Positions 5,142-60,536 of a DNA stretch of 64,000 bases are shown piece by piece. The notes under the pieces are model-generated. The model did not search any database, was not told the origin of the DNA, and saw only the letters and a list, made by a program, of their open reading frames with translations. This DNA is from Alphaproteobacteria bacterium. GTDB lineage: Bacteria > Pseudomonadota > Alphaproteobacteria > CAAHEQ01 > UBA3637. The stretch spans positions 76,066 to 140,065 of the forward strand of contig SUUT01000003.1 of the NCBI GenBank assembly GCA_015062385.1. The letters run 5' to 3'. Numbering within the stretch: position 1 is the first letter of the stretch; each line of letters begins with the position of its first letter. Position numbers and translations under genes: made by a program.

Positions 5142-7355
5142 ATGCGAATCAAACCGAATGAACACGGACGGAGTATGGTAGAAATCCTTGGGGTTTTGGC
5201 AATTATCGGGATTTTATCAATCGGCGGAATGGCGGGCTATCAATATGCATATTCATCATATCAAGCGGGACAGATTCAAGATGTTGTCAGTAAGGCTAAA
5301 TTATTGGCAACACAAAATAATCGTTCTTCGCATGTAAAAGAAGTACGGCGTTTTGTGGAAAATATGTTATCTAAGTATAAACCGGCTGATACGACACCAA
5401 TGGTTACACACCGTGACGGGAAATATATTGTCGATTTGTTTAACATCTCTGATTCGGTTTGTGAAAAACTCCAAAACAGACGGGATATATTCAATTCTAT
5501 GCGAATTGGTATGACACCGGAAGCGTGTACAACAGCTGAAATGAGTATGCAATTTATGTTTGACAGTATTGTCATCGGGGGAAGCAGTTCCGGGGGAGCG
5601 GAAAGCGGATATGATGACCCGAACAATCCGGATATAGGACGATGTCCGGATAAACAAGTCTGGCGACAAAAGGAAGACGGGACATATGGCTGTGTTTGTC
5701 GGCATGCATATGAATATGGAGAAGATTGTACCCGATGTGAACCGCCTCGCAGTTGGAATCAAGGTAATCAGAGTTGCCAATGTCCGGCAGATAAACCGAT
5801 ATGGGAATATGGTGTCTGTAAATGTATAGCCGATACAGACTGTCAATACAGTGGCACGGGTTTTTGTTGTGATGATACGGAACAAGTGTGTCGACAATGT
5901 GATGAAACGGATTGTGATAAAGCCAAAGGATTAACATTGGCAGATGGACGGTGTGTTTGTTCGGGACGGAAAGAATGGCGACAAGATGAGGGGGATTCTG
6001 AACCGAGTTGTAAATGTCCCGTTAATACGCCAACAGAAGCAAATTCTAAAACGTGCGAATGTCCGGACGGAAAAGATAATGTTGATGAGGACGGAGACGG
6101 GATGAACGAATGTGTCACATCTTGTCCGAGTGATACGGGATTTACGGGATTGAGAAATCGCACGACAGGGAATTGTTTATGTGATACGAGTAAAGGATAC
6201 AAGGCTGAATCGGAAACGGTCGGAGGGGTACAAACGTGCGTGTGTGATGACACACAGTCATATTATGAAAACACAAGTGGAGGATGTACAAAATGTTTTC
6301 GTACAACAAAAGAATGGTGTGAAATTCAGAATAAATCATGGTTAGATGTTGATTGCAACAGTATGAATGAAGAAGTTTGGGGATGTCGAATATATAAAAA
6401 AACATCAGAAGGTACATTTATGTATAATCCTTCCACAAAAAAATATTGTGAAGGAAAATTTGAAGTTTTAGTAAAAGATGAGAATGGTAAATTTGTATGC
6501 ACGAATGCTTGTGGTACGGCATATGGAACCGGTGGAACAGGAAAGGGCAATCGCTATAATTCAAATGGATGGTGTGGTTGTGTTCACTTTACTGTTTGGG
6601 AAAACGAAGAATGTGTTAATAAATGTAGTAATGGAATGTTATGGAATGGAAAATGTACACCTTGTCGAACAGGACACTGGACAACAGATGGTATTAAATG
6701 TAATAGTGGTTGCAATGATATTATGAGTGGACCATTCGGAACGGCATTTTCTTATCAACAATGGTTAAGAAAAACAGATAAAGCTACTTGTCATCCTAAT
6801 GAAGATGATGGTATTTCCGGTCGTGCTTTTCAATCAACGGATCCAAATTCACCGTGTTTTTACGGTAAGGGCTGTTATGTAATAAGTCAAAATTTAGCAA
6901 CATGTACATATGGTAATATTATTACGGAAGATTGCAAATGTTCAACCGGTGGGAGTGTTGGTCAATATTGTTGTTCGGCATCAACATATCCGACATCAAC
7001 GGGGTGTGTTTCTTGTCCGATAGGTCAAGTGCCAAACTCTACCCGTACAGGATGTACAATGTGTGAGCCGAACAAAATTACACAAAACGGAAAATGTGTT
7101 AAATGTGATAAAGGATATTATCCGAGCAGTCAACAAAACCGGTGTTTGGCTTGTCCGGCAGACAGAACAACCGATGAAGACGGGTTAACGTGTAGCGTTT
7201 GTGTGGATAGTTTAAAAGTGTTTAATATGATAACAAATAAGTGCGAATGTAAAAACGGTTATGAAGAAAATCCGGTTAACGGAAGTTGTATTTTGTTTGA
7301 GGATGAGATGGAAGAAAGCGAAGTATCTGAAAGTGCTGAAATATATATTAATTAA
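5142..7355 (+). CDS. giant cysteine-rich protein with type IV prepilin-type N-terminal leader
   Basis: 737 aa. N-terminus MRIKPNEHG/RSMVEILGVLAIIGILSIGG has Gly at -1, Glu at +5 and a hydrophobic helix. The rest is dense in Cys with many CxxC and CxC pairs. RBS gaggag upstream. Confidence 0.85.
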   Translation: MRIKPNEHGRSMVEILGVLAIIGILSIGGMAGYQYAYSSYQAGQIQDVVSKAKLLATQNNRSSHVKEVRRFVENMLSKYKPADTTPMVTHRDGKYIVDLFNISDSVCEKLQNRRDIFNSMRIGMTPEACTTAEMSMQFMFDSIVIGGSSSGGAESGYDDPNNPDIGRCPDKQVWRQKEDGTYGCVCRHAYEYGEDCTRCEPPRSWNQGNQSCQCPADKPIWEYGVCKCIADTDCQYSGTGFCCDDTEQVCRQCDETDCDKAKGLTLADGRCVCSGRKEWRQDEGDSEPSCKCPVNTPTEANSKTCECPDGKDNVDEDGDGMNECVTSCPSDTGFTGLRNRTTGNCLCDTSKGYKAESETVGGVQTCVCDDTQSYYENTSGGCTKCFRTTKEWCEIQNKSWLDVDCNSMNEEVWGCRIYKKTSEGTFMYNPSTKKYCEGKFEVLVKDENGKFVCTNACGTAYGTGGTGKGNRYNSNGWCGCVHFTVWENEECVNKCSNGMLWNGKCTPCRTGHWTTDGIKCNSGCNDIMSGPFGTAFSYQQWLRKTDKATCHPNEDDGISGRAFQSTDPNSPCFYGKGCYVISQNLATCTYGNIITEDCKCSTGGSVGQYCCSASTYPTSTGCVSCPIGQVPNSTRTGCTMCEPNKITQNGKCVKCDKGYYPSSQQNRCLACPADRTTDEDGLTCSVCVDSLKVFNMITNKCECKNGYEENPVNGSCILFEDEMEESEVSESAEIYIN

Positions 7356-9751: not shown

Positions 9752-12109
9752 TTAAATTGAACTACCATTCAAAACACAGTATTGTCCATCTAATGTCCGA
9801 TTAATGCAACTACACTTTGTTTCATCTCCTCCAACATCAATCGGTAGTGGTTCATTACATGGATGACAAATACCATTTTTGTCTTCTAGTGGTGCAATTT
9901 CCGAACAATAATCTCTTATACAAGAATTTACATTTAAACTTCTATTTCCACAAATATTGGAACACCTATATGTTGAATAAATTGCTTCTTGATATACGCT
10001 TTCATTATAATTGCAGGCGTAGCATTGTCCGTCGTATCGTGCTAATGGTTTATCCGCAACTGTTGTGCCGGTAACGCCACATAGAGCCGACCACGAACTA
10101 TTACCCCATGTTCCAACGATATACCGTTTCGGACAAGCTTTTTGAGCCTCTTCTTCTACGCCTTTTACATTAACACCGGCTTCTTCTTCACAGGAATAAC
10201 ATTTTCCGTCTTTATCTTTTAATGGTTTTCCGGTTGGGCAATCTTTTAAGACACAATAACCATTTTCCATTTTTCTATTCGGACAAACAGTGCTGCATTC
10301 TCCATTAATTGCATCGGGTGATACAGCTTGGTTATAATAACAATCGTGACAAGTGCCATTTGCATCTATAATTGGTTTTGGTTCTTCTCCTTCTAATTTA
10401 GGACATTTTGGATAACAATGATTAACACTTCCGTTTGAACGTTCATTTTTACATACGGATAAGCATTTATATTGCGAATAAATTGCTTCTTGATATACGC
10501 CATCATTATAATTACAAGCATAGCATTGTCCGTCATATCGTGCCAATGGTTTATCCGCAACTGTTGTTCCGGCAACGCCACATAGAGCCGACCACGAACT
10601 ATTACCCCATGTTCCAACGATATACCGTTTCGGACAAGCTTTTTGAGCCTCTTCTTCTACGCCTTTTACATTAACACCGGCTTCTTCTTCACAGGAATAA
10701 CATTTTCCGTCTTTATCTTTTAATGGTTTTCCGGTTGGGCAATCTTTTAAGACACAATAACCATTTTCCATTTTTCTATTCGGACAAACAGTGCTGCATT
10801 CTCCATTAATTGCATCGGGTGATACAGCTTGGTTATAATAACAATCGTGACAAGTGCCATTTGCATCTATAATTGGTTTGGGTTCTTCTGCTTCTAATTT
10901 AGGACATTTTAGGTAACAATGATTAACACTTCCGCATGAACGTTCATTTTTACATACGGATAAGCATTTATATTGCGAATAAATCGCTTCTTGATATACT
11001 TGACCACTATAATTACATGCATAACATTGTCCGTCGTATCGTGCTAATGGTTTATCTGCAACCGTTGTTCCGGCAACACCACATAGAGCCGACCACGAAC
11101 TACCACCCCATGTTCCAACGATATATCGTTTTGGACAAGCTTTTTCAGCCGAATTTTCTACGCCTTTTACATTAACACCTGTTGCTGTATCACAAGTATA
11201 ACATTTACCATTTGTATCCATTAAAGGTTTATTTTCATTACTCGTTCCTTTTAATCCGCACTTTAAAACACAGTATTTTTTAGAACCGGATACTAACCGA
11301 TTGGAACAAACCGCACAATTTTCTACCATTCCCTCCACATTCACTTGTGTTTCATCATCACACGCATAACAATTTCCATCTTTATCTCTAAGTGGCTTAT
11401 CTGCCGGACAACATTTATTGTTTGAATCGCAACACTCTCCATTTTCTCCGACATGTGTACAACACAAGCCACTTACGATACTCTCTTTTAAGCAACACAT
11501 CCAAGAATTGGGATTATCATAGCTTTTGGCACATCCGCTATTTTCAGGACACATTGTTTTACATAAGCCTTGTTCACACGTGGCACATTTGCAATCATTA
11601 TCCCGATAACACCGCCATGTTTCATGTCGTTCTTCTTCCTCTATATATTTCTTTTCCGTTAAGTCATCTTTAAATTCATAGGCTAGTGTGACAGTTTCCG
11701 CTTCATTACAAATGCTTGCATCAATTTCATATTCGGTTGTGCCGACAAAAATAGAATAAGGGATTGTCCATTGTGATTTTAACAGTTGCCGACAAACACC
11801 ACTGGGAACTTCATCTAAAAACACTTCAAAGTAATCTGCGTACTGCGGGCTGATACGAGCTCGAATCGGGTAGCCCATACGGGTATGGTCACCCATTTCA
11901 TCTACGGATAATTCAATTATTCCATTCAACATTTGACGGGATAAATCAGCGACTCGAATCTGTAATTCATTCAGTGTTTCATTTGCCCGATATTTATCCA
12001 TAGCGAACCGATATCCCATTATACCACCGACACTTAATACGCCGGTAACGGCAAGCACACCAAGCATTTCTACCATACTCCGACCGATTTCATTGAATTT
12101 AACTTTCAT
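9752..12109 (-). CDS. giant cysteine-rich protein with type IV prepilin-type leader (paralogue 2)
   Basis: 785 aa. MKVKFNEIG/RSMVEMLGVLAVTGVLSVGG leader. Conserved ~140-aa head, then Cys-rich modules including internal 167-aa tandem repeats. Confidence 0.85.
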   Translation of the reverse strand: MKVKFNEIGRSMVEMLGVLAVTGVLSVGGIMGYRFAMDKYRANETLNELQIRVADLSRQMLNGIIELSVDEMGDHTRMGYPIRARISPQYADYFEVFLDEVPSGVCRQLLKSQWTIPYSIFVGTTEYEIDASICNEAETVTLAYEFKDDLTEKKYIEEEERHETWRCYRDNDCKCATCEQGLCKTMCPENSGCAKSYDNPNSWMCCLKESIVSGLCCTHVGENGECCDSNNKCCPADKPLRDKDGNCYACDDETQVNVEGMVENCAVCSNRLVSGSKKYCVLKCGLKGTSNENKPLMDTNGKCYTCDTATGVNVKGVENSAEKACPKRYIVGTWGGSSWSALCGVAGTTVADKPLARYDGQCYACNYSGQVYQEAIYSQYKCLSVCKNERSCGSVNHCYLKCPKLEAEEPKPIIDANGTCHDCYYNQAVSPDAINGECSTVCPNRKMENGYCVLKDCPTGKPLKDKDGKCYSCEEEAGVNVKGVEEEAQKACPKRYIVGTWGNSSWSALCGVAGTTVADKPLARYDGQCYACNYNDGVYQEAIYSQYKCLSVCKNERSNGSVNHCYPKCPKLEGEEPKPIIDANGTCHDCYYNQAVSPDAINGECSTVCPNRKMENGYCVLKDCPTGKPLKDKDGKCYSCEEEAGVNVKGVEEEAQKACPKRYIVGTWGNSSWSALCGVTGTTVADKPLARYDGQCYACNYNESVYQEAIYSTYRCSNICGNRSLNVNSCIRDYCSEIAPLEDKNGICHPCNEPLPIDVGGDETKCSCINRTLDGQYCVLNGSSI
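9983..11175 (-). repeat. in-frame tandem repeat, period 501 bp, ~2.4 copies
   Basis: The sequence starting ccacatagagccgaccacgaac at 10077 recurs at 10578. Partial copies flank both sides. Units are nearly identical by eye. Confidence 0.9.
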
Positions 12110-14712: not shown

Positions 14713-14791
14713 CGATTAATATCGGCAAATATTATTATAACAATATTTTATTTGAAAAACAAGTTTTATATGCGATTAATGTATAGAAAAA

Positions 14792-25282: not shown

Positions 25283-27199
25283 ATGCAATCTAAAATCAAT
25301 GAAATCGGTCGGAGTATGGTGGAAATGCTGGGAGTACTTGCTGTTATCGGTATTTTAAGTGTTGGGGGCATAATGGGTTATAAATTTGCCATGCTTAAAT
25401 ATCGTGTCAATGAAACCGTCAATGAACTCAATATACGGACAAATGAAATTTATCAATATTTTTCCGTTCAGGAAAATGAAAATTTACCGACACAAACGGT
25501 CGGAGCAGAAATTAAAATGTCACTTGGAGAAACAATGCGAACCGGTTATCCGATAAGTGCATTTGTTTCAGCCAATAACGAATCGTTTTTTGAGTTGGAA
25601 CTTCAACAAGTTGAAACAGAAATGTGTCAACAGTTGATGCAAATTTATAAGGTGCCGGATGTTATATTCGTTAACGAACAACAATATTTAAATGATTTAT
25701 CATTATGTGGCAACAAAGATTTTGTTAAATTAAATTTTATTTATAATAAGACATTCAACAAAAAAACGGCATGTGATAATCGCAGTGAATTTGATTCGAT
25801 ATCTTTAAAATGTCGATGTAAAGGGGATTCCTATTTGGATATTGTGAGTAATACATGTAAATGTGCCGGTGGAGAAATATGGAGTTCAAGTGAGCAAAAG
25901 TGCATTGTTTCTGTCTGTGAAGAAGGATATTTTGAAACACAACAAGACGGATGCCAACCGTGCAACGGTTCGGAAACTTATCTGATATCCAAAAATCAAG
26001 AGCAATATTGTAATGCATGTTCGCCAGAAACAAAGAGAGTTGTTTATAAATATGCAAGTGGTTTGTTATATTGTGCAGTTAAGTGTCCACAAGATATGTT
26101 TTGGGACGGGAATCGCAGAAAGTGTCAATTATGTACATTTTCCGATTTTGGTGGCAGTTATGATGAGATATCAAAAGCCGAATGTTTAGCTTGTTCAAGT
26201 ACTTCACGAGAATTATTTCGAAAAACTGAATGTCGTTTATCCGATTGGTGCCCATCATCTGAGCGAAAATTCTTTGGTGTAGATGAACAATCTACAAACA
26301 TGCGGTCTTATTTTAAATGTATGTCTTGTGATACAATAAAACAACTGTTATTACAAGGAGATTCCAAGGCAATAGCAGCGTGTAATGCTTGTGTAGATGA
26401 AAATAACCAATCAAACAGACAAGTTATTAATGATTATTGTGTTAAAAAAACGTGTTCCGATGGAGAATTTATGGGAGCTGATGGTATTTGTTATTCTTGT
26501 TCAGATGAACGGTCTGTTGCTGTTTTGCCTCAACAGGAAGAAGCGTGTACATCATCTGCTTGTCAACGCAGGGTTGTAAACGGATATTGTCAAATACAAG
26601 ATTGTCCATCGGAAACACATATACGATTATCAAATGGTGATTGTTATTCTTGTTCGGAAGAGAGAGGATTCATCAGTACCGAAGAAGAGTGTGATAAGTG
26701 TGGCAATAAACGGGGATATGTTATTGCTCACAATGGTCAGATTGGATATTGTCGGATTAATAATTGTGCTAAAGGAAGTAGTTATCCTTATAATCTTCCA
26801 GATAATTTGAATTCCTGCATTAGTTGTCAAAAGCCTTGGTATACCGGGGAAACGGCATATAGTATGGAATATTGTGAAGCCTGTGGAGATGGATATTATG
26901 TTTCCGGTAATGTTTGTTATGGACCTGATTTTTGTCAGACGGGTTCGCAACTGATATCAAACAGTGGTACAGAATGTATTGATTGTACTGTTGTTGAAAA
27001 AATTTATGTTGGTATGCATGAAAAACATCGTACATATAGTGACAATTGTGTAACTGTCAATCGTTTTATTGTTGAAGATTATTCTTATCGGTGTGATACG
27101 AGAGAAAATATACCGGTCTTTTTAGAGGCTGATAAAAAATCCTGTATCAATTGTCGCATACGTTCCGTTGTAGATGATGTTTGTGTGTTGACACAATAA
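25283..27199 (+). CDS. giant cysteine-rich protein with type IV prepilin-type leader (paralogue 3)
   Basis: 638 aa. MQSKINEIG/RSMVEMLGVLAVIGILSVGG leader. At least 13 CxxC pairs (CQPC, CNAC, CQLC, CLAC, CMSC, CYSC...). Confidence 0.85.
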   Translation: MQSKINEIGRSMVEMLGVLAVIGILSVGGIMGYKFAMLKYRVNETVNELNIRTNEIYQYFSVQENENLPTQTVGAEIKMSLGETMRTGYPISAFVSANNESFFELELQQVETEMCQQLMQIYKVPDVIFVNEQQYLNDLSLCGNKDFVKLNFIYNKTFNKKTACDNRSEFDSISLKCRCKGDSYLDIVSNTCKCAGGEIWSSSEQKCIVSVCEEGYFETQQDGCQPCNGSETYLISKNQEQYCNACSPETKRVVYKYASGLLYCAVKCPQDMFWDGNRRKCQLCTFSDFGGSYDEISKAECLACSSTSRELFRKTECRLSDWCPSSERKFFGVDEQSTNMRSYFKCMSCDTIKQLLLQGDSKAIAACNACVDENNQSNRQVINDYCVKKTCSDGEFMGADGICYSCSDERSVAVLPQQEEACTSSACQRRVVNGYCQIQDCPSETHIRLSNGDCYSCSEERGFISTEEECDKCGNKRGYVIAHNGQIGYCRINNCAKGSSYPYNLPDNLNSCISCQKPWYTGETAYSMEYCEACGDGYYVSGNVCYGPDFCQTGSQLISNSGTECIDCTVVEKIYVGMHEKHRTYSDNCVTVNRFIVEDYSYRCDTRENIPVFLEADKKSCINCRIRSVVDDVCVLTQ

Positions 27200-27385: not shown

Positions 27386-27598
27386 TTAACTGCAATATTT
27401 TTGCCGACATACGTCTTGTGAATAATGCCATTCATTCATACATGTATTCATACAATTATCATCTAAATTTTTAAAATATAATCCAATTGCAAAAGTGATT
27501 GTTCCAATGAGTGCAAAAAACATAAGAACAAAACTAAATAAAATAGTAAAAAACAATGGAATATTCTTATGGATTGTACTTTTGACTGATGAGGTCAT
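27386..27598 (-). CDS. small single-TM protein with C-terminal Cys motif (putative partner/immunity of the SAA-like protein)
   Basis: 70 aa from the internal ATG (MTSSVKS...) with RBS aaggaaa. TM helix, then CMNTCMNEWHYSQDVCRQKYCS. Overlaps the 3' end of the upstream gene by 32 nt. Confidence 0.6.
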   Translation of the reverse strand: MTSSVKSTIHKNIPLFFTILFSFVLMFFALIGTITFAIGLYFKNLDDNCMNTCMNEWHYSQDVCRQKYCS

Positions 27599-37241: not shown

Positions 37242-37709
37242 ATGGAGAAAGTAATGGAAATAAGCGAACCAATTATGATTAACAAAAAATATTATCCAAT
37301 CCCAGAAGATTTAGAAACCTTAAAAGAAATTGAAAAACATTTGATTTATATTAACCAGCCGATTAATAGTAGATTATCCAGTTTATTACAGGTTGTTTGT
37401 GTAAATACGAGAAACCCGAAACTTGTTGAATATCTGTTAAAACAACAAGCCAATCCTTATTATATGGATATCAATGGATATACGGCTTTTGATTATGCTT
37501 TGGAAAATAAAGTGGGATTAAAAGACTGGTTGTTTATTTTGTTGGGAAAATATCAGCACCGTTTTAAACAACGAGATATGACAGAAAGAAAAGAATTTGT
37601 TTACCATCTCATTCAATCCGAAATCATTAAATATGAACTGCAAAAACGAGAAAGTGAAGCTTTATTATTACAAGAATTAGAAGAGTTGGAGATACCCGAT
37701 GATGAATAA
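37242..37709 (+). CDS. ankyrin-repeat protein
   Basis: 155 aa. LVEYLLKQQANPYYMDINGYTAFDYAL repeat. Confidence 0.65.
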   Translation: MEKVMEISEPIMINKKYYPIPEDLETLKEIEKHLIYINQPINSRLSSLLQVVCVNTRNPKLVEYLLKQQANPYYMDINGYTAFDYALENKVGLKDWLFILLGKYQHRFKQRDMTERKEFVYHLIQSEIIKYELQKRESEALLLQELEELEIPDDE

Positions 37710-47264: not shown

Positions 47265-47657
47265 TTAATATGGCTCATTATTGATTTTTGATACAAAATC
47301 TTGCAAACGTTCTCGGTCTTCATTTGCTTTGTCCCCTTTAAAATAAATCTCAACAAATGTTATTAGCCGTTTTTCTTCTTCCCATACAAAAACAACTCTA
47401 ATCCCTGATTTTGCTCCTCGCCCTTTTAATGTTCTACATGAAAATTTTCTAACTTTGTTAGATGTGTAGTTTTCATCACAAAATCCTTCTATCAGAACAA
47501 ATGCAGTTGTCGGTTCTCCTTTTTCATAAAAAGTCTCAATGGTATATTTTTTCATATACTCAAAATCTGTTTCCAAAGACTTAAAGCGTTTTAGCAATAA
47601 TTTAAAATCTTTATTAAATTCAGGAAGTTTTGTGTAATTAATCATTTTAATCTTCAT
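47265..47657 (-). CDS. RelE/ParE-superfamily-like toxin (candidate PanT)
   Basis: 130 aa. GAKSGIRVVFVWEEEKRLITFVEIYFKGDKANED resembles the RelE/HigB C-terminal pattern. Overlaps the upstream antitoxin gene by 11 nt. Confidence 0.55.
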   Translation of the reverse strand: MKIKMINYTKLPEFNKDFKLLLKRFKSLETDFEYMKKYTIETFYEKGEPTTAFVLIEGFCDENYTSNKVRKFSCRTLKGRGAKSGIRVVFVWEEEKRLITFVEIYFKGDKANEDRERLQDFVSKINNEPY

Positions 47658-48411
47658 ACTCCCGTAATGAAGTGCTTTCGTTTCTGTAAAAAACGGCTTC
47701 GTAATCTAAAACATCTCCCATTTCAGCCCCAATCCAAGGAATATCTTTGTGCGAATAATTGGATAACTCTGTTCCTGTTTTATCAGACAATCTATCTAAT
47801 TCCTTATCAATGTGTTCTAATTCACGAGCAGATAAAAGTGTTAAATCCGGCTTCTTTATTGGCAAATACTTTGTTTGTTCATGCTTGAAGAATTTTGTTT
47901 TAACTTCTTCCAATTCTCCATCTTTTTCCATTTCTTTAATTAATTTTGCAAAATCTACCGGCGTTGGTCCATAAGTGTTTTTTATGTATTCTAATCCCAT
48001 TAATTGTTCTTCATATAATTCATAGTAATCAAAATCTATAAAATATAACAATTTGTAAATAACTGTTTGTCCGACATTGGGTTTAGCCCCAACTTTGTTT
48101 AAAATATAAAGCAAAACCTGTTTAAATTTTTCAATATTTTTTTGAGGAATATCTATGCGAATATCTTCTTTAACATCTTCATCATTACTTTGTATGATAT
48201 TATATGCTGGTTTAACAGGCATTTTATTATCTATAAAACATGCATAATCAACATCAAAAATATTTGCTAGTTTTTTGATGATGTCTATTGGCAAAGAAGA
48301 TGTTTCATTTTCATATTTTCCCAATGTTTGACGAGCGATTCCTAACTCTTCTGCTAATTGTTCTTGGGAAATACCTTTTTCTTCTCGTAAAAGTTTTATA
48401 ATGTTAATCAT
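47647..48411 (-). CDS. XRE-HTH plus Panacea (DUF4065/SocA-like) antitoxin
   Basis: The N-terminus LREEKGISQEQLAEELGIARQTLGKYENE is an XRE HTH. The central KLLYFIDFDYYELYEEQLMGLEYIKNTYGPTP matches the DUF4065 core. Start placed at MINIIK with RBS aaagga. Confidence 0.7.
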   Translation of the reverse strand: MINIIKLLREEKGISQEQLAEELGIARQTLGKYENETSSLPIDIIKKLANIFDVDYACFIDNKMPVKPAYNIIQSNDEDVKEDIRIDIPQKNIEKFKQVLLYILNKVGAKPNVGQTVIYKLLYFIDFDYYELYEEQLMGLEYIKNTYGPTPVDFAKLIKEMEKDGELEEVKTKFFKHEQTKYLPIKKPDLTLLSARELEHIDKELDRLSDKTGTELSNYSHKDIPWIGAEMGDVLDYEAVFYRNESTSLREYED

Positions 48412-48541
48412 TGTAAATCCTTTCATCTTACCACATAATAGTAACATATTTTTTAAAAAATGTCAACAACTATTAACATAAATTTGTTAAATAATGATTA
48501 CATTTTTTGTTTTTTTCATTCTTTTTCAACTTTTTTCTTAA

Positions 48542-49383: not shown

Positions 49384-52098
49384 CTAACCCTCTTTACAAT
49401 CTGCGACCAACTTATCAAAAGTCCGATTGAGAACAACCATTGTGTCAGGTATCAACAAATAATGCCAAGGCTTGTCGTTGTGTTCTTCTTCAAACTTTGT
49501 AGCAATTTCACACCATCTGACAGCTGCATCCTTTTTGGCTTGAACTGTTTTGTCATCAATGTCTTTTTCGGCTTTTGTTTCAATCATATACTTGGCTTTT
49601 GTCGTTTCCACAATAAAGTCAGGCAGATATGTTTTAACTTCATGGGTTGATACATCTTGATATTTGATGTCAAAGATTTCTCTTGCTCTGTCGTTGTTGA
49701 TTTTAAACCACTTTAACACTTCCGGAGCACTTTCTAAAATCTCGCAAAGGTCTTTTTCTGTACATGAATCAAACTTTTGTTTGGCAAACAGGCATTTATT
49801 AAATCCTTCAAATGCCATATTGCGAATTTTTGATTTGTCTTGAATATGTGCTTTATAATTCACACTTTCAGCCCCTTCGGTGACGGTGATTTTGTAAGAA
49901 GCCGTTGTAATGGTTGCATAACCACTATCTACACGAATGTTTAACTTTACAGGGGCTTGCTTTACATGGTCTTTGATTTGTTTATAAATCTTTTTGGCAA
50001 TATCCTTGTTATTAAAGAACAAAATCTTTCTGGTGTTCAATTCACTGCCAGAATATGAAGTAATGTGGTCAATTACTTGATTAACCAATTTGTTTAACAA
50101 GTCGGCATTTGTATCATAGTCAATTAAAATTTCATCAATTAACAAGGTTAAAAGATAGTGAGTGATGTTTTCATATCTATCCACAAATTCAGCATTGAAC
50201 TCATCTCGGGCAGATTTGCTCAATAGTTCTTCAACCAACATTTTTTGTGGAATAGGTTCATATCCATTAAAATCAGATGTGGCAATGTCAAAATCTTCAA
50301 TGGTAAAATCACCTTCTTGTTCATACCAGATTTTAATACGGGGTGTGTCAATGCTCAATTTTCTGAAATTTTCTGTATATCGTTTCAGGGTTTCTTTGAC
50401 ATCAACTAATGGTTCCAAAGAAAGTTCTGATTTTTCCAATGCAATGTTTTTCAATCTGGTTTCAACCATTTCTTGCATTTTTTCTTGTGTCTCTTGAGTA
50501 CTTAAATCGGCTGAACTCATCACATAACGGCTTGTTTCGTTAATAACTTCCCGAACAGTTTCGGCAATTCGTCTGTTATCTTCATTTGAGAAAACAGGCA
50601 ATTTTTCTTGGGTTTGTGTTTTCCTTTGAACAACAACATTGCCTTCTTGAATTAACTTATCTAATTTACTTTCATTTTCAACAACAACCTTACCAATTAA
50701 GCCTTCATCAGAGTTATCAATATATTCCTGTTGAAATTCATAAGCCCCGGCACGAGCAGCTGAAATGATATCATTAAACTTATCATGAGCAATCACATGC
50801 AAACGGTCAATCATCTTATCTCCCGTCAATTCCCCAAAAGGCAAGCGAAGACCACGACCGATAGATTGTTCAACCAAAATCTTTGAATTTGCGGCTCTCA
50901 ATGGAACAATGGTATAAAGGTTATTAACGTCCCATCCTTCACCAAGCATGTTCACATGAATAACAATTTCTGTTGGTTCATTCGGGTCTTCAATATCCAA
51001 AAGTCTTTGAACCATTTCATCTTTTAATTCACCATTTTGTTTGGAGTGAACAATGATGACTTTTCCTTTATATCGTCCATCTTCAAAATCATCACTATCA
51101 ATACGGGTCAAAATTTCTTCTGCATGCCCTGTATTTTCTGCCACAATCATAATAAATGGTTTGACAAGTTTTGTTTTCTTGTTATCTGCATAAACTTGTA
51201 ATTCTGCCTTAATGCTTTCATGAACTTTAATGGCATCCACAATTTTAAGGTTTTCTAATTCAACCGAGTTGGCTCCATACAATTCTTTATCAAAATTAGA
51301 ACGACCAACAACCGATGGTTTCTTGACATATCCATCTGTAATCGCATGGGCAAGGTTATATTCATAAGCAATATTTCTAAATGCTTTTCCCTTAGCACCT
51401 GTTGATTTGGCTGTTGCCGTTAATTCAATTCCCAATACCGGATGCAACTCATTAATAGCTGCCATACCAGCACTAGCTCTGTATCTATGAGCTTCATCCA
51501 TAATTAAAACAAGGTCTTTTAATCCAGCCAAATAATCAAAGTATGATTGTCCTAAATATTCTGCCATTCTACGAACCCTTGGTGTTCCACGAGAATCTTG
51601 GTCAGAGTTGATTTTTGAAATGTTAAAGATGTTAATTCGTAATCTGTCATCATTTGGATTATCAAACAATCCACCCACTTGATTGTAATCATCACCTGTA
51701 ATAATTTGAGGTGTTCCCACATATTCTGTTAAACCTGGAAAGACATATTTCGGTGTATTGGGTGTAAAATCCTGCTTTAATTTGTTATAAATGGTTAAGT
51801 TTGGGGCTAAAACCATAAAGTTTTTAACCTTATATTCGGCATGAATATAGGCAATCATTGCACCCATCAATCTTGTTTTACCAACACCGGTTGCAATTGC
51901 AAAACAAAGACAAGGGAAAATTCTTTCAAAATCTTTTACAGATGGATGAATTTCTTGAATAATACGAAGGGTTTCTTCAAGTGAAATATCCTTTTTTAAT
52001 TCAATTCGTTCAAGGATTTGAGCCAATATATCTAAACTATCTTTTTGAGGCTGTCTTAAAGAGAGTGCTTGTTCAATTCGTCTTTGTGTATTGTTCAT
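49384..52098 (-). CDS. res: Type III restriction endonuclease subunit (Res)
   Basis: 904 aa. ATGVGKT (motif I), LIMDEAHRYR (DEAH), helicase-C, C-terminal PD-(D/E)xK-like LPDFIV...MIETKAEKD. Confidence 0.85.
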   Translation of the reverse strand: MNNTQRRIEQALSLRQPQKDSLDILAQILERIELKKDISLEETLRIIQEIHPSVKDFERIFPCLCFAIATGVGKTRLMGAMIAYIHAEYKVKNFMVLAPNLTIYNKLKQDFTPNTPKYVFPGLTEYVGTPQIITGDDYNQVGGLFDNPNDDRLRINIFNISKINSDQDSRGTPRVRRMAEYLGQSYFDYLAGLKDLVLIMDEAHRYRASAGMAAINELHPVLGIELTATAKSTGAKGKAFRNIAYEYNLAHAITDGYVKKPSVVGRSNFDKELYGANSVELENLKIVDAIKVHESIKAELQVYADNKKTKLVKPFIMIVAENTGHAEEILTRIDSDDFEDGRYKGKVIIVHSKQNGELKDEMVQRLLDIEDPNEPTEIVIHVNMLGEGWDVNNLYTIVPLRAANSKILVEQSIGRGLRLPFGELTGDKMIDRLHVIAHDKFNDIISAARAGAYEFQQEYIDNSDEGLIGKVVVENESKLDKLIQEGNVVVQRKTQTQEKLPVFSNEDNRRIAETVREVINETSRYVMSSADLSTQETQEKMQEMVETRLKNIALEKSELSLEPLVDVKETLKRYTENFRKLSIDTPRIKIWYEQEGDFTIEDFDIATSDFNGYEPIPQKMLVEELLSKSARDEFNAEFVDRYENITHYLLTLLIDEILIDYDTNADLLNKLVNQVIDHITSYSGSELNTRKILFFNNKDIAKKIYKQIKDHVKQAPVKLNIRVDSGYATITTASYKITVTEGAESVNYKAHIQDKSKIRNMAFEGFNKCLFAKQKFDSCTEKDLCEILESAPEVLKWFKINNDRAREIFDIKYQDVSTHEVKTYLPDFIVETTKAKYMIETKAEKDIDDKTVQAKKDAAVRWCEIATKFEEEHNDKPWHYLLIPDTMVVLNRTFDKLVADCKEG

Positions 52099-52776: not shown

Positions 52777-53238
52777 ATGGATAAGTTAGTCATTCGTGTC
52801 GCAGAACAGAATTTAAGTAAAATAAAAGAACTCATCAATCAAGGATATGATTTAAATAAACCTTATAACGAGCATGGTTGGACACCATTTACTTTGGCAG
52901 TTGCTCAAAAGTTTCAAGTATCTTTTATAAATGAATTGATTAAACTGGGTGGTGATATCAACCAACCAATCAAAGATGGTAGAACTCCTATTATGCTATC
53001 TTGTATATCCAGACAATACCCCAATGTTTTGAAACTACTTATTAAATATGGAGCAGATATAAATGCTCAGGACAAGAATGGTTTTACTGCTTTGATGCAA
53101 GTTTTAAAACAAAATAACATATCTGAAAGAAAAGCATTTATCAAAACCCTGATAGATAATGGAGCAGACTTAACAACCATTAAGAACATTTATGGAGAAA
53201 CTGCTTTAGATTTGATATTGGATTTAATAACGAGATGA
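52777..53238 (+). CDS. ankyrin-repeat protein
   Basis: 153 aa, about four ANK repeats (GWTPFTLAV, DGRTPIMLS, NGFTALMQV, GETALD). Confidence 0.85.
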   Translation: MDKLVIRVAEQNLSKIKELINQGYDLNKPYNEHGWTPFTLAVAQKFQVSFINELIKLGGDINQPIKDGRTPIMLSCISRQYPNVLKLLIKYGADINAQDKNGFTALMQVLKQNNISERKAFIKTLIDNGADLTTIKNIYGETALDLILDLITR

Positions 53239-55487: not shown

Positions 55488-56069
55488 ATGATTAACCAAA
55501 CTTACATTGATGATAAAAAAGTCAAAGACATTTTGACTTACATTTCAGGAATGAGACATTCAGAACAAATCAGAATGATGTTCTTGTGTTCATTGAATGG
55601 GATGAGAAGCATTAACTTCTGTTATCTACAAATCAAAGATGTCTATCATCCCGACCTGAGTGTTAAAGATGTTATTTGTCTTGATGAGAATAAAAACAAA
55701 GGCAAGTTCGGGGCAAACTATTATTTAAACAGTCAAATGAAGAAGGAGTTTAAAGAATATTTGAAATACTTAAAATCAAAAAATGATGAATTAAATCCAG
55801 ATGATTACCTTTTTAAATCTCAAAAGTTAGGCAAACCTTATAACAGAGTTTCAATTAGTAGATTGTTTGCAAACATCTATAAGAAGTTCAACATTCATGG
55901 AGCAAGTCATTTAGGCAGACATCTATTCGTGTCTAAGTTGGTTAATAGTGGTGTCAATATTTGTTTAGTTCAAAGATTAGCCAATCACAGGAATATCAGC
56001 ACAACTCAAAGATACTTCAACTATAATCCTCAAATGTTATCCAATGCTGTGGAAAGTTTAAAGATATAA
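55488..56069 (+). CDS. small tyrosine recombinase (integrase catalytic domain only)
   Basis: 193 aa. NGMRSINF (Arg), SHLGRHLF (H-x-x-R), NHRNISTTQRY (His...Tyr). Confidence 0.75.
   Translation: MINQTYIDDKKVKDILTYISGMRHSEQIRMMFLCSLNGMRSINFCYLQIKDVYHPDLSVKDVICLDENKNKGKFGANYYLNSQMKKEFKEYLKYLKSKNDELNPDDYLFKSQKLGKPYNRVSISRLFANIYKKFNIHGASHLGRHLFVSKLVNSGVNICLVQRLANHRNISTTQRYFNYNPQMLSNAVESLKI

Positions 56070-56335: not shown

Positions 56336-56352
<17 letters not shown>
56300..56352. repeat. attR: 53-bp direct repeat overlapping the tRNA-Thr 3' end and its terminator
   Basis: Identical to 33088-33140. Confidence 0.9.
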
Positions 56353-56411
<59 letters not shown>

Positions 56412-58285: not shown

Positions 58286-58452
58286 AAAAAAAAGGGACGT
58301 ATAAATGCAACACTTTTTTTCACATTTTTGCATTTTTTTTGATTTTAACTAACCAATTCAATAAAAACAATAATCTTTTATTTTTTTTAGAAACTGATTT
58401 TGCCGATTCGAAGCGGGAAAAAAAGGTCCCTTTTATTACACTCATTTTATAA
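58286..58452 (+). promoter_or_regulatory. conserved 5' cassette of the pilin-like gene family (copy 4)
   Basis: Aligns with 4947-5120 and diverges only in the last ~20 bp. Confidence 0.8.
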
Positions 58453-58478
58453 CTAATATTTTATAAAAGGGGTGTATT

Positions 58479-60536
58479 ATGAAACAAAGAATACAAAAAG
58501 AACATCAAAAACAAGTAATTTTGAATGAACAAGCCATTCATTTAAGCACATTAACCAATCCAAAGGAAAAAGGGCGTTCCATGGTGGAAATGCTGGGTGT
58601 TTTAGCTGTTATCGGCGTGTTGAGTGTTGGTGGTATTATGGGTTATAAATATGGGATGATGAAATATCGTGTGAATGAAACCATCAATGAGCTGAATATT
58701 ATGGCAAATACATACGGTGTTCAAATGCAACAGATGGCAGAGGAACAAACTTTACCAACAGAGGGGGAATTACTTAGTGAAGAAAATGCTGTCACTCGTA
58801 TGGGATATGGGTATGAAGTACTCGGCTTTGATAATCATTTTGAAATAGCGTTATTTAATGTGCCGAATCCGGAATGTGAGCAATTACAAAAAACAGGTTG
58901 GGAATTGCCATACGATATACAAGTAGCAGAAGTAACGGTAGAAAAATGCGGTACATTAGTATATTACATTGATAACGGGTTAACGGGAACGCTAACGGAA
59001 TATGTTGATTCGGATAAGGAAGATGCAGAAGAAGATGATGATGACAATAATCCGTGTAATAAAGCCGGCACAGAAAGTTGGGATGGGTCTGTTTGTCATT
59101 GTAAAAGTGGATATTTAGGAACTTATTGTGAGCAATGTGATACGGTCGGAGGATTTGAACGACAAGATGTTAATGGAAAATGTTATTCTAGCGTGTTTTG
59201 TTCAGATGAAGAAACCTGTAATGGTCATGGTAGAGCGTTAATGGGTTCAGTGTATTATTTGGGTATATGTGCTTGTTTTGAGTGTGATGCAGGGTATTAT
59301 GGAACATATTGTGAAAACTATGGTGGTAATGATGTGTGTAGTGGGCATGGTGTTTGGGCGATAGATCATAATGAAGGCTGGAATGGGTGTTTTTGTGATG
59401 AGGGTTATTTTGGTAGAAATTGTGAATTAACAGACAAAGAGAAAGAATGTAGTGGACATGGAGCTGTTATGGGCTATGGACATTGCTTTTGTGAAGAAGG
59501 TTGGTCGGGAGAAAATTGCGAAAAAGAGGAAGCCTATGTAACTAATTGTGTTAATGGGATAACCACCATAATTAACGGAGAAGAACGGTGTGTTTGTAAA
59601 ATGGGATGGAGTGGAGAGACATGTGAAGCACCTGTTTGTAATGGTCGAGGAAGATTGGATGCTGATAATAAGTGTATTTGTGATGAGGATTACTCTCCTG
59701 AATCTAATTGTACGGAACGAGCCTGTGGTGGAAATGGAAGATTAAATGAAAACGGTGAGTGTGAATGTTATTCTGTTGGTGCCTATGAACCAGATTCTAA
59801 TTGCCAAATACGTGCTTGCGGGGGGAATGGTACACTTAACAGTGCGGGACAGTGTGTGTGTAATGCTCGTTCATATTTTAGTAATGGGACATGCGTTCGT
59901 ATAACAACAGAGGCTGCTTGTAATAATCGTGGTATGGTTATTGATGGTAAGTGTGTTTGTTATAAAGAGTATGATCCTAGTACAAATTGTAAAGAAGAAA
60001 TTTGCAATGGACACGGAATTTTAAATGATGATGGAACATGTTCCTGTTATTCCGATTATAACCCTAAAACTGATTGCAAAGAACAAGTTTGCAATGGGGC
60101 AGGTAATTTAAATGATGATGGAACATGTAATTGTTATGCAAGATATGGAGGATTGTTTTGTGAAGAAGCTCCATGTGTGGGAGGATATTATCAGAATGGA
60201 AAATGTTATTGTTCCAGTGGATATGTTAGAAATGGAGATGCGTGTATTCCTGTAACAGGTGAATGTAATAGTAGAGGGGCAAAGATTGATGGTAAGTGTG
60301 TTTGTATTGAAGATTATACGCCGGAATCTAATTGTAAAACACGTGCTTGTAATGGTAATGGATATTTAGATTCCAATGGTAAATGTGTTTGTAATGTTGA
60401 TAAAGGTTATAGAGCTTTTGCCGGTACGGATTGTAGTGTTAATTGTTATGAGACAACAACGTGTCCTGAGAATGCAATTATAGGTGTTTTGAAGAATGAG
60501 TGTACCTGTTTATATGTAGGAAGTGCTGTTCAATAA
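58479..60536 (+). CDS. giant cysteine-rich protein with type IV prepilin-type leader and EGF/tenascin-like repeats (paralogue 4)
   Basis: 685 aa. A 32-aa extension, then KEKG/RSMVEMLGVLAVIGVLSVGG. From ~aa 193 there are repeated C-x-C-x2-G-[YFW]-x4-C units (CHCKSGYLGTYC, CECDAGYYGTYC, CFCDEGYFGRNC, CFCEEGWSGENC, CVCKMGWSGETC) and C(N/S)G(H/R)G starts. Confidence 0.85.
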   Translation: MKQRIQKEHQKQVILNEQAIHLSTLTNPKEKGRSMVEMLGVLAVIGVLSVGGIMGYKYGMMKYRVNETINELNIMANTYGVQMQQMAEEQTLPTEGELLSEENAVTRMGYGYEVLGFDNHFEIALFNVPNPECEQLQKTGWELPYDIQVAEVTVEKCGTLVYYIDNGLTGTLTEYVDSDKEDAEEDDDDNNPCNKAGTESWDGSVCHCKSGYLGTYCEQCDTVGGFERQDVNGKCYSSVFCSDEETCNGHGRALMGSVYYLGICACFECDAGYYGTYCENYGGNDVCSGHGVWAIDHNEGWNGCFCDEGYFGRNCELTDKEKECSGHGAVMGYGHCFCEEGWSGENCEKEEAYVTNCVNGITTIINGEERCVCKMGWSGETCEAPVCNGRGRLDADNKCICDEDYSPESNCTERACGGNGRLNENGECECYSVGAYEPDSNCQIRACGGNGTLNSAGQCVCNARSYFSNGTCVRITTEAACNNRGMVIDGKCVCYKEYDPSTNCKEEICNGHGILNDDGTCSCYSDYNPKTDCKEQVCNGAGNLNDDGTCNCYARYGGLFCEEAPCVGGYYQNGKCYCSSGYVRNGDACIPVTGECNSRGAKIDGKCVCIEDYTPESNCKTRACNGNGYLDSNGKCVCNVDKGYRAFAGTDCSVNCYETTTCPENAIIGVLKNECTCLYVGSAVQ

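What the first reader, a model, noticed from the sequence alone, without database searches (positions are those of the whole stretch)
58286..60536. Pilin-like paralogue 4 carries bona fide EGF/tenascin-type repeats
From ~59055 onward the protein contains at least five matches to the EGF-2 signature C-x-C-x2-[GP]-[FYW]-x4-8-C: CHCKSGYLGTYC, CECDAGYYGTYC, CFCDEGYFGRNC, CFCEEGWSGENC and CVCKMGWSGETC. Each is preceded by C(N/S)G(H/R)G, as in tenascin and teneurin EGF arrays.

About eight ~30-aa units follow, of the form (A/V/I)C(N/G)G(N/H/A/R)G.L(N/D)..G.C.C.

EGF arrays are overwhelmingly eukaryotic extracellular modules. Fusing them to a prepilin leader suggests display of a host-mimicking module on a pilus-like fibre, or secretion through a T2SS-like route. 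The ankyrin and Sel1 proteins elsewhere in the window point to a host-associated lifestyle.
Basis: partly seen in the sequence, partly recalled or inferred. Interest (0 to 1): 0.7.

Follow-up and report, generated by a model that had tools for sequence, protein, structure and literature searches.

The report
Pilin-like protein carrying EGF-like repeats
An uncultured gut alphaproteobacterium encodes a protein in which a type IV pilin-like front end is joined to a rod of about 14 reduced (four-cysteine) EGF-like repeats, most likely an adhesin shown on a pilus-type fibre.

Summary
ORF 58479-60536 (+), 685 aa, passes Pfam's curated cut-offs for EGF_TEN (82.6 bits vs 65), EGF_Teneurin (80.1 vs 24.3) and EGF_2. 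It has 5 strict PROSITE EGF-2 matches against 0.06 expected by shuffling.

The repeats are not canonical. All 14 units have four cysteines; EGF cysteines C1 and C3, a disulfide pair, are both missing.

The N-terminus has the class III signal signature (G-1, E+5, about 20 hydrophobic residues). It is homologous to small stand-alone pilins that hit Pfam PilS/Bundlin (type IVb pilins). AlphaFold2 models it as a 58-residue helix plus a small beta-sheet.

So this is a modular pilin: pilin module, acidic linker, EGF-like stalk and a small C-terminal cap. Among relatives the pilin module is 84-100% identical, the EGF part only 21-50%.

All four paralogues in the window share a 125-nt upstream element. 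Relatives occur only in uncultured gut and rumen Alphaproteobacteria MAGs, named "hypothetical protein".

Not shown: a prepilin peptidase or assembly machinery (none in about 200 kb inspected), surface display, host mimicry, or acquisition from a eukaryote. I rate it a new variant of a known kind, of moderate interest.

The parts
58330..58452 (+). Conserved upstream element shared by all four pilin-like paralogues. The 43-nt core is at 58410-58452. It is a candidate common promoter or 5'-UTR control region.
   Evidence: Alignment A4 has 85% mean column identity. The core has 4 matches in the window with 0 expected by chance. It also lies upstream of orthologues in L001, L014 and L025-L028.
58466..58472 (+). 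Shine-Dalgarno-like AAAGGGG, 6 nt before the ATG at 58479.
   Evidence: Read directly from the sequence.
58479..58574 (+). Leader peptide, aa 1-32, ending in G32 (position -1). Cleavage is predicted between G32 and R33.
   Evidence: The motif KG|RSMVEML has E at +5. G, R, S, M and E are invariant in 60 relatives. Both the long leader (32 aa) and a short one (9 aa) occur in the family.
58575..58742 (+). Hydrophobic alpha1-N and amphipathic alpha1-C helix of the pilin module (aa 33-88).
   Evidence: AF2 with a 60-sequence alignment gives a helix over query residues 6-63 (aa 31-88), pLDDT about 90. The profile aligns to TcpA alpha1.
58743..59003 (+). Small globular head of the pilin module (aa 89-175), with strands, a short helix and the conserved cysteines C133 and C157.
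   Evidence: AF2 strands and helix. BLASTP to P0170, a 209-aa Bundlin+PilS-type pilin: 36% identity, E 1e-21, reaching into the head. This part is 84-99% identical in P0001-P0012.
59004..59054 (+). Acidic low-complexity linker (aa 176-192, DSDKEDAEEDDDDNNP).
   Evidence: Read from the sequence. pLDDT is below 50 over residues 166-188.
59055..59624 (+). EGF-like units U1-U5 (aa 193-382), the most canonical ones. They hold four of the five PS01186 matches, and aa 218-246 form an irregular Cys-containing insert.
   Evidence: The best stretches of nearly all outside hits fall within aa 285-392.
59637..60434 (+). EGF-like units U6-U14 (aa 387-652). They have four cysteines each, the form C-x-G-x-G-x-L...C-x-C...C, and a period of about 30 aa.
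   Evidence: Unit table. pLDDT is 70-90 with beta-hairpins. EGF_Teneurin gives 11 stretches.
60435..60536 (+). C-terminal four-cysteine cap (aa 653-685, ...NCYETTTCPENAIIGVLKNECTCLYVGSAVQ) and stop codon.
   Evidence: A similar C...CP.G...C.C(L/V)Y end occurs in P0002, P0003, P0004, P0006, P0022 and P0243 even where the array differs.
5142..7355 (+). Paralogue 1: same leader and pilin module, a different Cys-rich C-terminal part, and no EGF Pfam hit.
9752..12109 (-). Paralogue 2: same leader and pilin module, with a different Cys-rich repeated C-terminal part.
25283..27199 (+). Paralogue 3: same leader and pilin module, with a different Cys-rich C-terminal part.

Best explanation
The gene encodes a modular type IV (type IVb-like) pilin.

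Shown:
- a class III signal peptide signature;
- a pilin-type N-terminal module;
- an acidic linker;
- a stalk of 14 four-cysteine EGF-like units;
- a small conserved C-terminal cap.

Inferred:
- A prepilin peptidase cuts after G32.
- The hydrophobic helix then inserts the subunit into a type 4 filament.
- The subunit probably sits at the tip, as with other bulky minor pilins.
- The thin, disulfide-stiffened EGF rod would be roughly 35-40 nm long, assuming 2.5-3 nm per unit. It would pass the outer-membrane channel and hold the distal units and cap away from the cell, where they bind a host or partner surface.

The gene is one member of a co-regulated family. The members share the pilin handle and the upstream element but carry different Cys-rich payloads.
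For: EGF part:
- Pfam scores are above the curated cut-offs.
- There are 5 PS01186 matches against 0.056 expected.
- HMMER alignments to WIF-1 and teneurin-3 EGF repeats place C2, C4, C5 and C6 in register.
- AF2 pLDDT is 70-90 over the array.
- Foldseek top hits are DLL4, Notch1, Jagged-1, DLL1, teneurin-3 and WIF-1.

Pilin part:
- G-1, E+5 and the hydrophobic stretch are invariant in 60 relatives that average 16% column identity.
- A divergent member, P0243, still keeps the pattern as G|MAVKE.
- Of the 60 relatives, 13 hit Pfam PilS (best 1e-18) and 9 hit Bundlin (best 3e-15).
- BLASTP to the Bundlin/PilS-type pilin P0170 gives E 1e-21 over about 150 aa.
- The four best PDB sequence hits of the family profile are all type IV pilins, with TcpA first, though E is only 0.19.
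- AF2 gives a 58-residue N-terminal helix plus strands, pLDDT 78.

Modularity:
- The pilin module is 84-100% identical in P0001-P0012, while the EGF part is 21-50% identical and varies in length.
- Other family members carry EGF plus a Mucin2_WxxW domain (P0253, 96.7 bits) or arrays up to 2041 aa (P0247).
- Modular pilins are an established class (PMC8179133).

Diderm envelope and disulfide chemistry:
- An OprB porin lies next door.
- MlaA/MlaC and TolC-like genes occur in relatives.
- A DsbA-like gene occurs in a related genome.
Against: - No prepilin peptidase, assembly ATPase, platform protein or secretin was found in the 64-kb window or in about 140 kb of related neighbourhoods.
- Pilin-like genes in this lineage sit alone among housekeeping genes.
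- Pfam N_methyl scores 11.7, below its cut-off of 21.2, and NCBIfam finds nothing.
- Foldseek of the N-module model gives no significant pilin match. The best pilin is C. difficile PilW, E 0.19.
- Arginine at +1 is unusual for a pilin.
- The disulfide pairing, surface exposure and any ligand are all unmeasured.
Confidence: 0.55

Rival explanations
1. The class III-type leader serves only as an export and anchoring device. After cleavage, or without it, the protein stays tethered in the inner membrane by its hydrophobic helix, with the EGF array in the periplasm. Alternatively it forms short pseudopilus-like bundles. This would resemble archaeal binding proteins and T2SS pseudopilins rather than subunits of an extended pilus.
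For: No secretin or pilus assembly genes were seen in any inspected neighbourhood. The family is very large and scattered: 4 genes in 64 kb, at least 12 loci in one MAG, and 457 relatives. That looks more like a general targeting signal than a set of pilus subunits. JGI names some relatives 'pseudopilin PulG'.
Against: A 500-residue, fast-diverging, disulfide-rich rod with a strictly conserved assembly module is what one expects of an exposed, selected surface. Periplasmic proteins rarely show this pattern. The homology is to type IVb major pilins.
Confidence: 0.2
2. The N-terminus is an ordinary Sec signal-anchor that only resembles a prepilin leader. The protein would then be a secreted or membrane-bound Cys-rich protein unrelated to pili.
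For: N_methyl is below the Pfam cut-off and there is no NCBIfam prepilin hit. Foldseek found no significant pilin.
Against: An invariant Gly, then Glu five residues later inside the hydrophobic core, held across 60 otherwise divergent proteins, is the class III signature and is unfavourable in Sec h-regions. Homology to PilS/Bundlin pilins extends into the globular head. The 58-residue helix is typical of pilins.
Confidence: 0.1
3. The EGF array was recently taken from a eukaryote (a gut protist or the animal host) and works as a molecular mimic of a host EGF-repeat protein.
For: After the protein's own family, the best hits of the EGF region include protist proteins: Trimastix marina (E 4e-34), Pterocystis and Blepharisma. 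Pterocystis also has four-cysteine units. Other eukaryote-type domains occur in the window (Ank, Sel1, MORN, serum amyloid A) and in family members (Mucin2_WxxW).
Against: Identity to any outside protein is only 33-48% over short stretches, which is motif-level similarity. High-GC proteins that look bacterial (P0245, P0265) rank equally. All pilin-linked arrays use only the four-cysteine form, while most other outside hits, where named eukaryotic, use the six-cysteine form. The units are diverged, with no DNA-level repeats. GC3 is 0.19, as AT-rich as or richer than the host genes. No specific host protein is matched.
Confidence: 0.15

Closest known systems
Modular type IV pilins, e.g. Streptococcus sanguinis PilB (vWA module) and PilC (lectin module) (PMC8179133)
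   Same: An N-terminal pilin module is joined by a short linker to a bulky non-pilin module thought to be shown at the filament tip for adhesion. The design is widespread, with 264 architectures reported.
   Different: The payload here is a long array of EGF-like repeats. EGF is not named in that paper's text or in its held supplements. The organism is a diderm alphaproteobacterium. The gene belongs to a multigene family with a shared upstream element. Nothing here has been tested experimentally.
Large minor pilins of type IVb pili (CofB of ETEC, TcpB of Vibrio cholerae)
   Same: Type IVb-like pilin module plus linker plus C-terminal domains, about 500+ aa in total. CofB is proposed to form a tip complex (PMC8179133).
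   Different: CofB carries beta-repeat and beta-sandwich domains, not EGF. CofB and TcpB are encoded inside the pilus operon (own knowledge), whereas this gene stands alone next to a porin gene. No sequence similarity to CofB or TcpB was detected.
Type IVb major pilins: TcpA, bundlin BfpA, PilS (Pfam PF05307, PF08805)
   Same: G-1 and E+5, a long leader, and a hydrophobic alpha1 with a G-x-x-S-x-G pattern. Family relatives hit PilS and Bundlin. The profile aligns to TcpA up to the first D-region cysteine.
   Different: The target itself does not reach the PilS or Bundlin thresholds. Arginine is at +1. The head is small (about 90 aa) and is followed by 500 extra residues.
Teneurin and tenascin EGF arrays (Pfam EGF_TEN, EGF_Teneurin, EGF_Tenascin)
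   Same: The repeats share the core C-S/N-G-H/R-G ... C-x-C-x2-G-[FYW]-x-G-x2-C and come in tandem arrays of about 30 aa. Scores exceed Pfam cut-offs and units align to teneurin-3.
   Different: There are four cysteines per unit instead of six, with no C1 or C3. There is no YD-shell, FN3 or fibrinogen domain. EGF_Tenascin scores below its cut-off (16 vs 25). The distal units U6-U14 lack the G-aromatic-x-G motif.
EGF-like repeat proteins of other bacteria and of protists (P0245 and P0265, high-GC and apparently bacterial; Pterocystis P0248; Trimastix P0241)
   Same: Same Pfam families. Pterocystis and parts of P0245 and P0265 also use four-cysteine CxGxG units.
   Different: Those proteins have Sec-type or lipoprotein-like signals, or C-terminal anchors, not a pilin module. 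Most mix in, or consist of, six-cysteine units.

Membership tests
EGF-like domain (Pfam EGF_TEN PF25024, EGF_Teneurin PF23106, EGF_2 PF07974) | Profile score at or above the curated gathering threshold | tested here: met
   82.6 vs 65, 80.1 vs 24.3 and 26.4 vs 22.1 bits.
EGF-like domain | PROSITE EGF-2 signature C-x-C-x2-[GP]-[FYW]-x4-8-C | tested here: met
   5 matches against 0.056 expected in 20,000 shuffles.
EGF-like domain (canonical) | Six cysteines forming C1-C3, C2-C4 and C5-C6 | tested here: not met
   All 14 units have 4 cysteines. Alignments to WIF-1 and teneurin-3 put non-Cys residues at C1 and C3. There are 0 six-Cys units in any pilin-linked relative. Losing both partners of one disulfide is self-consistent. 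The actual pairing was not measured.
EGF-like domain | EGF fold (small two-stranded beta-sheets) | tested here: met
   AF2 pLDDT is 70-90 with paired short strands in each unit. Foldseek top hits are DLL4, Notch1, Jagged-1 and DLL1, with E from 7.5e-5 to 1e-3. TM-scores are low because the array is flexible.
Teneurin / tenascin proteins | Accompanying domains (YD-shell and NHL for teneurin; FN3 and fibrinogen globe for tenascin) | tested here: not met
   No such Pfam hits. Only the repeat type is shared.
Type IV pilin / class III signal peptide | Gly at -1, Glu at +5, then about 20 hydrophobic residues | tested here: met
   KG|RSMVEMLGVLAVIGVLSVGGIMGY. These positions are invariant in 60 relatives.
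Type IV pilin | Curated N-terminal methylation motif models (Pfam N_methyl PF07963; NCBIfam prepilin models) | tested here: not met
   N_methyl scores 11.7 bits against a cut-off of 21.2, and there is no NCBIfam hit. Of 60 relatives, 24 give weak N_methyl hits (best E 0.0017).
Type IV pilin | Long N-terminal alpha-helix packed on an antiparallel beta-sheet head | tested here: inconclusive
   The AF2 model (pLDDT 78, pTM 0.65) has a 58-residue helix, strands and a short helix. Foldseek gave no significant pilin match; the best was PilW at E 0.19.
Type IVb pilins (Pfam PilS PF08805, Bundlin PF05307) | Sequence homology to family members | tested here: met
   The link is indirect. The target scores E 1e-21 and 7e-21 to P0170 and P0168, which carry PF05307 and/or PF08805. 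13 and 9 of 60 relatives hit these families. The target itself does not hit them.
Type 4 filament system | Prepilin peptidase, assembly ATPase, platform protein and (in diderms) a secretin in the same genome | not testable with these tools
   None were found in the window or in 10 related neighbourhoods. The full genome could not be read.
Modular pilins (PMC8179133) | [quoted passage not shown] | tested here: met
   The architecture is leader and pilin module (aa 1-175), acidic linker (176-192) and EGF array (193-652). That paper defined the class by InterPro IPR012902, which was not run here.

The most novel reading that the evidence does not exclude
This uncultured gut alphaproteobacterium devotes a large share of its genome to a co-regulated multigene family of type IVb-like modular pilins. 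The four copies take 13% of this 64-kb window. All copies share one assembly handle and one 125-nt upstream control element. Each copy carries a different fast-evolving, disulfide-rich, eukaryote-type payload, such as a four-cysteine EGF array or, in relatives, a Mucin2 WxxW domain. The family would work as an exchangeable adhesin repertoire on a pilus for attaching to host mucus or epithelium, or to a protist partner. It would be a pilin-based counterpart of variable surface-protein families.
Probability: 0.25. Interest if true: 0.8.

Novelty: new variant of a known kind. Interest (0 to 1): 0.55.

Why it matters
Modular pilins explain how simple filaments gain new functions. An EGF-repeat payload was not found in the published survey of modular pilin architectures, in either its text or its held supplements.

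The carriers are uncultured Alphaproteobacteria from ruminant and other gut or faecal samples whose biology is almost unknown. Every member of the target's cluster at 90% identity that carries a name is called 'hypothetical protein'.

Three features point to the main interface between these bacteria and their host or partner. The assembly module is strictly conserved, the EGF-like or mucin-like payloads are hypervariable, and the paralogues share an upstream element. Together they give a concrete handle for testing that interface through expression, cleavage, localisation and binding.

The four-cysteine unit is also a compact, naturally simplified EGF scaffold. It occurs in both bacteria and protists, which bears on how the EGF fold evolved and spread.

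Tried and rejected
- Foldseek of the N-module model against PDB gave no significant match (best E 0.11; best pilin, PilW, at 0.19). Fold-level proof of a pilin head was therefore not obtained.
- NCBIfam gave no hit for the target or the three paralogues.
- A search for pilus or T2SS genes beside family members in ten neighbourhoods (L001-L005, L019-L028) and in the whole window found none.
- Tandem Repeats Finder found no DNA-level repeat in the EGF region, so the units are old and diverged.
- The sigma-70 and terminator scan gave counts no higher than in shuffles and is uninformative.
- I tried by eye to read the shared upstream core as a sigma-54 or sigma-70 promoter. Neither fits well, so it is left open.
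- The GTDB scan did not find the window's own species. The best relative is MAG RGIG7750 from water buffalo rectum, with 57-59% identity.
- Taxonomy below class could not be fixed. Names are only 'Alphaproteobacteria bacterium'. Membership of order Rs-D84 (Ca. Enterousia, PMC12306168) was considered but not tested.
- Calcium-binding EGF was rejected on inspection. The D/N-x-D/N-E/Q-C1 motif cannot exist without C1.
- The paper on rumen-ciliate symbionts (10.1101/2025.07.29.667580) mentions no Alphaproteobacteria, pili or EGF.
- A unit-level phylogeny was not attempted, because 25-30-aa units would not resolve.
Full report
**1. What is there**

The finding lies in ORF 58479..60536 (+), 685 aa. 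A Shine-Dalgarno-like AAAGGGG sits 6 nt before the ATG.

The window belongs to an alphaproteobacterium. It carries a two-piece alpha_tmRNA at 14420-14766 (231 bits). GC content is 33%.

The exact protein is in public databases on a 145-kb contig. The other members of its cluster at 90% identity are from MAGs labelled 'Alphaproteobacteria bacterium' and are named 'hypothetical protein'. A 99% identical copy lies on a contig of a metagenome assembly (record XIEF21-1_SAMN15829932). By its name this appears to belong to the ruminant gastrointestinal MAG study PMC8199421 (listed).

**2. The EGF claim**

Pfam places the protein above curated cut-offs for three EGF families:
- EGF_TEN, 82.6 bits against 65, spanning aa 262-462
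- EGF_Teneurin, 80.1 against 24.3, 11 stretches
- EGF_2, 26.4 against 22.1

EGF_Tenascin is below its threshold (16 against 25).

The strict PROSITE EGF-2 pattern matches five times: at aa 206, 304, 336, 371 and 576. Shuffles of the same Cys-rich region average 0.056 matches, with at most 2 in 20,000.

I count 14 units between aa 193 and 652. There is an irregular insert at aa 218-246, and a four-cysteine cap at aa 653-685.

**3. A reduced EGF**

Every unit has four cysteines, arranged C...C-x-C...C. HMMER alignments to WIF-1 and teneurin-3 EGF repeats put these on C2, C4, C5 and C6. Non-cysteine residues sit at C1 and C3.

C1 and C3 are partners in the canonical fold. The two missing cysteines are therefore exactly one disulfide pair. 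All 64 cysteines after aa 193 could still be paired.

AlphaFold2 with 23 homologues gives pLDDT 70-90 and paired short strands over the array. Foldseek's best PDB hits are EGF arrays: DLL4, Notch1, Jagged-1, DLL1, teneurin-3 and WIF-1. Their E-values (7.5e-5 and weaker) and TM-scores are low, as expected for a flexible rod.

The profiles pass, and the disulfide pattern is a coherent subset of the EGF pattern. Still, 'bona fide' should be read as 'EGF-like, two-disulfide variant'. The pairing itself was not measured.

**4. The pilin claim**

The N-terminus reads KG|RSMVEMLGVLAVIGVLSVGGIMGY. Gly is at -1 and Glu at +5, followed by about 20 hydrophobic residues.

Four ORFs in the window carry this leader: 5142-7355 (+), 9752-12109 (-), 25283-27199 (+) and the target. 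Only the target has EGF hits.

Curated prepilin models do not reach threshold. N_methyl scores 11.7 against 21.2, and NCBIfam finds nothing.

Other evidence supports a pilin module:
- A search with aa 26-191 found 457 relatives.
- In an alignment of 60 of them with 16% mean column identity, the G, R, S, M and E positions are invariant.
- 13 of the 60 hit Pfam PilS (best 1e-18), 9 hit Bundlin (best 3e-15) and 24 hit N_methyl weakly.
- The target aligns to two small stand-alone pilins, P0170 (Bundlin+PilS) and P0168 (PilS), at E 1e-21 and 7e-21. The similarity runs into the globular head.
- The four best PDB sequence matches of the family profile are all type IV pilins. TcpA is first and aligns up to its first D-region cysteine, but E is only 0.19.
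- AlphaFold2 with the 60-sequence alignment gives pLDDT 78 and pTM 0.65. It shows a 58-residue N-terminal helix followed by strands and a short helix.

Foldseek of that model found no significant pilin, so fold-level proof is lacking.

Overall the module is best described as type IVb-like. It has long or variable leaders (9 or 32 aa), a non-aromatic +1 residue, and PilS/Bundlin/TcpA affinities.

**5. Architecture and evolution**

The layout is:
- leader, aa 1-32
- alpha1 helix, aa 33-88
- small head with C133 and C157, aa 89-175
- acidic disordered linker, aa 176-192
- EGF-like stalk, aa 193-652
- cap, aa 653-685

Among relatives P0001-P0012 the pilin module is 84-100% identical. Units U1-U5 are only 41-68% identical in the non-identical relatives. 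Units U6-U14 are 21-50% identical and vary in number.

There is no DNA-level repeat. GC3 of the EGF part is 0.19 against about 0.26 for RecA and AlaRS. The array is therefore old and fully adapted to this AT-rich genome.

A constant assembly handle with a fast-changing exposed payload is the pattern expected of a displayed adhesin.

**6. A shared control region**

All four paralogues are preceded by a conserved element of about 125 nt, with 85% mean column identity. Its 43-nt core, GAAGCGGGAAAAAAAGGTCCCTTTTATTACACTCAyTTTATAA, occurs four times in the window with none expected by chance. It ends 26-32 nt before each ATG.

The core, or close variants of it, also precedes pilin-like genes in related contigs and in MAG RGIG7750. 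It does not precede the small PilS-type pilins of more distant relatives.

This suggests common regulation of the large modular paralogues. I could not assign it to a known promoter type.

**7. Distribution**

The EGF-bearing subfamily comprises P0001-P0023, with P0021 the exception (no EGF hit; it looks chimeric). All members seen are from metagenomes or MAGs; those that carry a name are labelled 'Alphaproteobacteria bacterium'.

One GTDB genome, RGIG7750 from water buffalo rectum, has at least 12 loci.

Other subfamilies with the same leader but different heads also carry four-cysteine EGF arrays: P0024, P0025, P0028, P0052 and the 2041-aa P0247. P0253 adds a Mucin2_WxxW domain at 96.7 bits.

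No pilin-linked protein has a single six-cysteine unit.

**8. Origin of the repeats**

An exhaustive HMMER search with the EGF region alone found only 315 proteins at E<=1e-3 among 1.84 billion representatives.

After the protein's own family, the best hits include:
- Trimastix marina (4917 aa, E 4e-34)
- Pterocystis
- Blepharisma
- unnamed metagenomic proteins
- high-GC proteins that look bacterial: P0245 has a lipoprotein-like signal, and P0265 has a C-terminus weakly like myxosortase substrates

Identities are 33-48% over short stretches, centred on U3-U5.

Pterocystis also uses four-cysteine units. Most of the other outside hits, where named eukaryotic, use six.

The data do not show a recent transfer or its direction. 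A eukaryotic origin is possible but unproven.

**9. Context and what is missing**

The gene stands alone. RuvA and a DUF2934 gene lie upstream on the opposite strand. An OprB-family porin and an LPG_synthase_TM gene lie downstream. The downstream pair is conserved in relatives, whereas the upstream side differs (MlaA/MlaC).

No prepilin peptidase, assembly ATPase, platform protein or secretin is present in the window. None is present in ten related neighbourhoods either.

The inspected DNA totals roughly 200 kb and is spread over several related genomes, so absence there is not decisive. This remains the main gap.

A DsbA-like gene exists in a related genome, so periplasmic disulfide formation is plausible.

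**10. Mechanism**

Best reading, confidence 0.55: a modular type IVb-like minor pilin.

Shown: the class III signature, pilin-family homology, the linker, the EGF-like array, and the conserved-handle, variable-payload pattern.

Inferred: cleavage after G32; incorporation through alpha1 into a type 4 filament, probably at the tip as proposed for PilB and CofB (PMC8179133); and the EGF rod acting as a thin rigid spacer that can pass a secretin and present its distal part for binding.

Rivals:
- an anchored periplasmic or pseudopilus-type protein that is never displayed (0.2)
- a plain Sec signal-anchor (0.1)
- for the origin and function of the array, recent eukaryote-derived mimicry (0.15), which is not exclusive of the main reading

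T2SS cargo uses Sec or Tat signals (established knowledge).

**11. Comparison and novelty**

The protein works like known modular pilins (PilB/PilC, CofB/TcpB). Its repeats belong to the teneurin/tenascin-type EGF class by profile.

It differs in several ways: the EGF payload; the four-cysteine form; the multigene organisation with a shared upstream element; and the carrier lineage.

EGF is not mentioned in the modular-pilin survey's text or held supplements. That is weak evidence that the architecture is undescribed.

Verdict: real feature, new variant of a known kind, interest 0.55.

Noticed in passing
window 5070-5112(+), 12142-12184(-), 25215-25257(+), 58410-58452(+); wider element about 125 nt: All four pilin-like paralogues share a near-identical upstream element, with none expected by chance. 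It ends 26-32 nt before each start codon. The core or variants also precede pilin-like genes in related contigs (L001, L014, L017, L025-L028; variants in L009, L010, L013). It may be a common promoter, a 5'-UTR control site or a recombination handle.
   Followed up: partly
window 29433-30113(-) and 27567-28076(-): Two ORFs hit Pfam Serum amyloid A (PF00277) above the gathering cut-off: 46.6 and 34.6 bits against 30.8. This is another animal-type domain in this bacterium.
   Followed up: no
window about 33950-56411: This looks like an integrated island bounded by tRNA-Thr(CGT) at 56336-56411(-). It holds an integrase (33956-35641), an integrase fragment (55488-56069), an SNF2 helicase (40724-43621), an N6/N4 DNA methylase (44397-46034), a ResIII+TnsA-like protein (49384-52098), Bro-N, an HTH+SocA/Panacea protein (47647-48447) and an ankyrin protein (52777-53238). 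A relative (L001/L028) has MlaA/MlaC directly upstream of the EGF-pilin gene instead.
   Followed up: partly
window 5142-7355(+), 9752-12109(-), 25283-27199(+): The three other paralogues have 450-600-aa Cys-rich C-terminal parts with no Pfam family. Paralogue 2 has long internal repeats (…GTWGNSSWSALCGV.GTTVADKPLARYDGQCYACNY…). All four end with a similar C-(V/I/T)-(L/C)-L-type motif. These may be undescribed disulfide-rich modules.
   Followed up: no
P0253 (695 aa, metagenome) and P0247 (2041 aa, NCBI/ENA): Relatives with the same pilin leader carry other payloads. P0253 has an EGF array plus a Mucin2_WxxW domain (96.7 bits). P0247 has a 2041-aa giant EGF array (EGF_TEN 237 bits).
   Followed up: partly
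window 7446-8495(+), 12381-13472(-), 37242-37709(+); L025/L026 433-2156; L027 198-659: The window encodes Sel1 (5 repeats, 156 bits), MORN-repeat and weak ankyrin proteins. Flanking parts of the same or related contigs encode further ankyrin proteins. This fits a host- or partner-associated lifestyle.
   Followed up: no
window 17513-19435(-): A 640-aa ORF has only a weak Thioredoxin_7 hit (17.6 bits, below cut-off). It could relate to the heavy disulfide load of the pilin-like family, but this is unverified.
   Followed up: no
L003 10001-10676 and 16520-18655; L019/L020 7617-8084 and 10001-10456: In related genomes, pilin-like genes with the GRSMVEML leader are scattered singly or in small tandem pairs among housekeeping genes, for example next to ATP synthase, EF-Tu, MatE or mraZ. 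They are never inside a pilus operon.
   Followed up: partly
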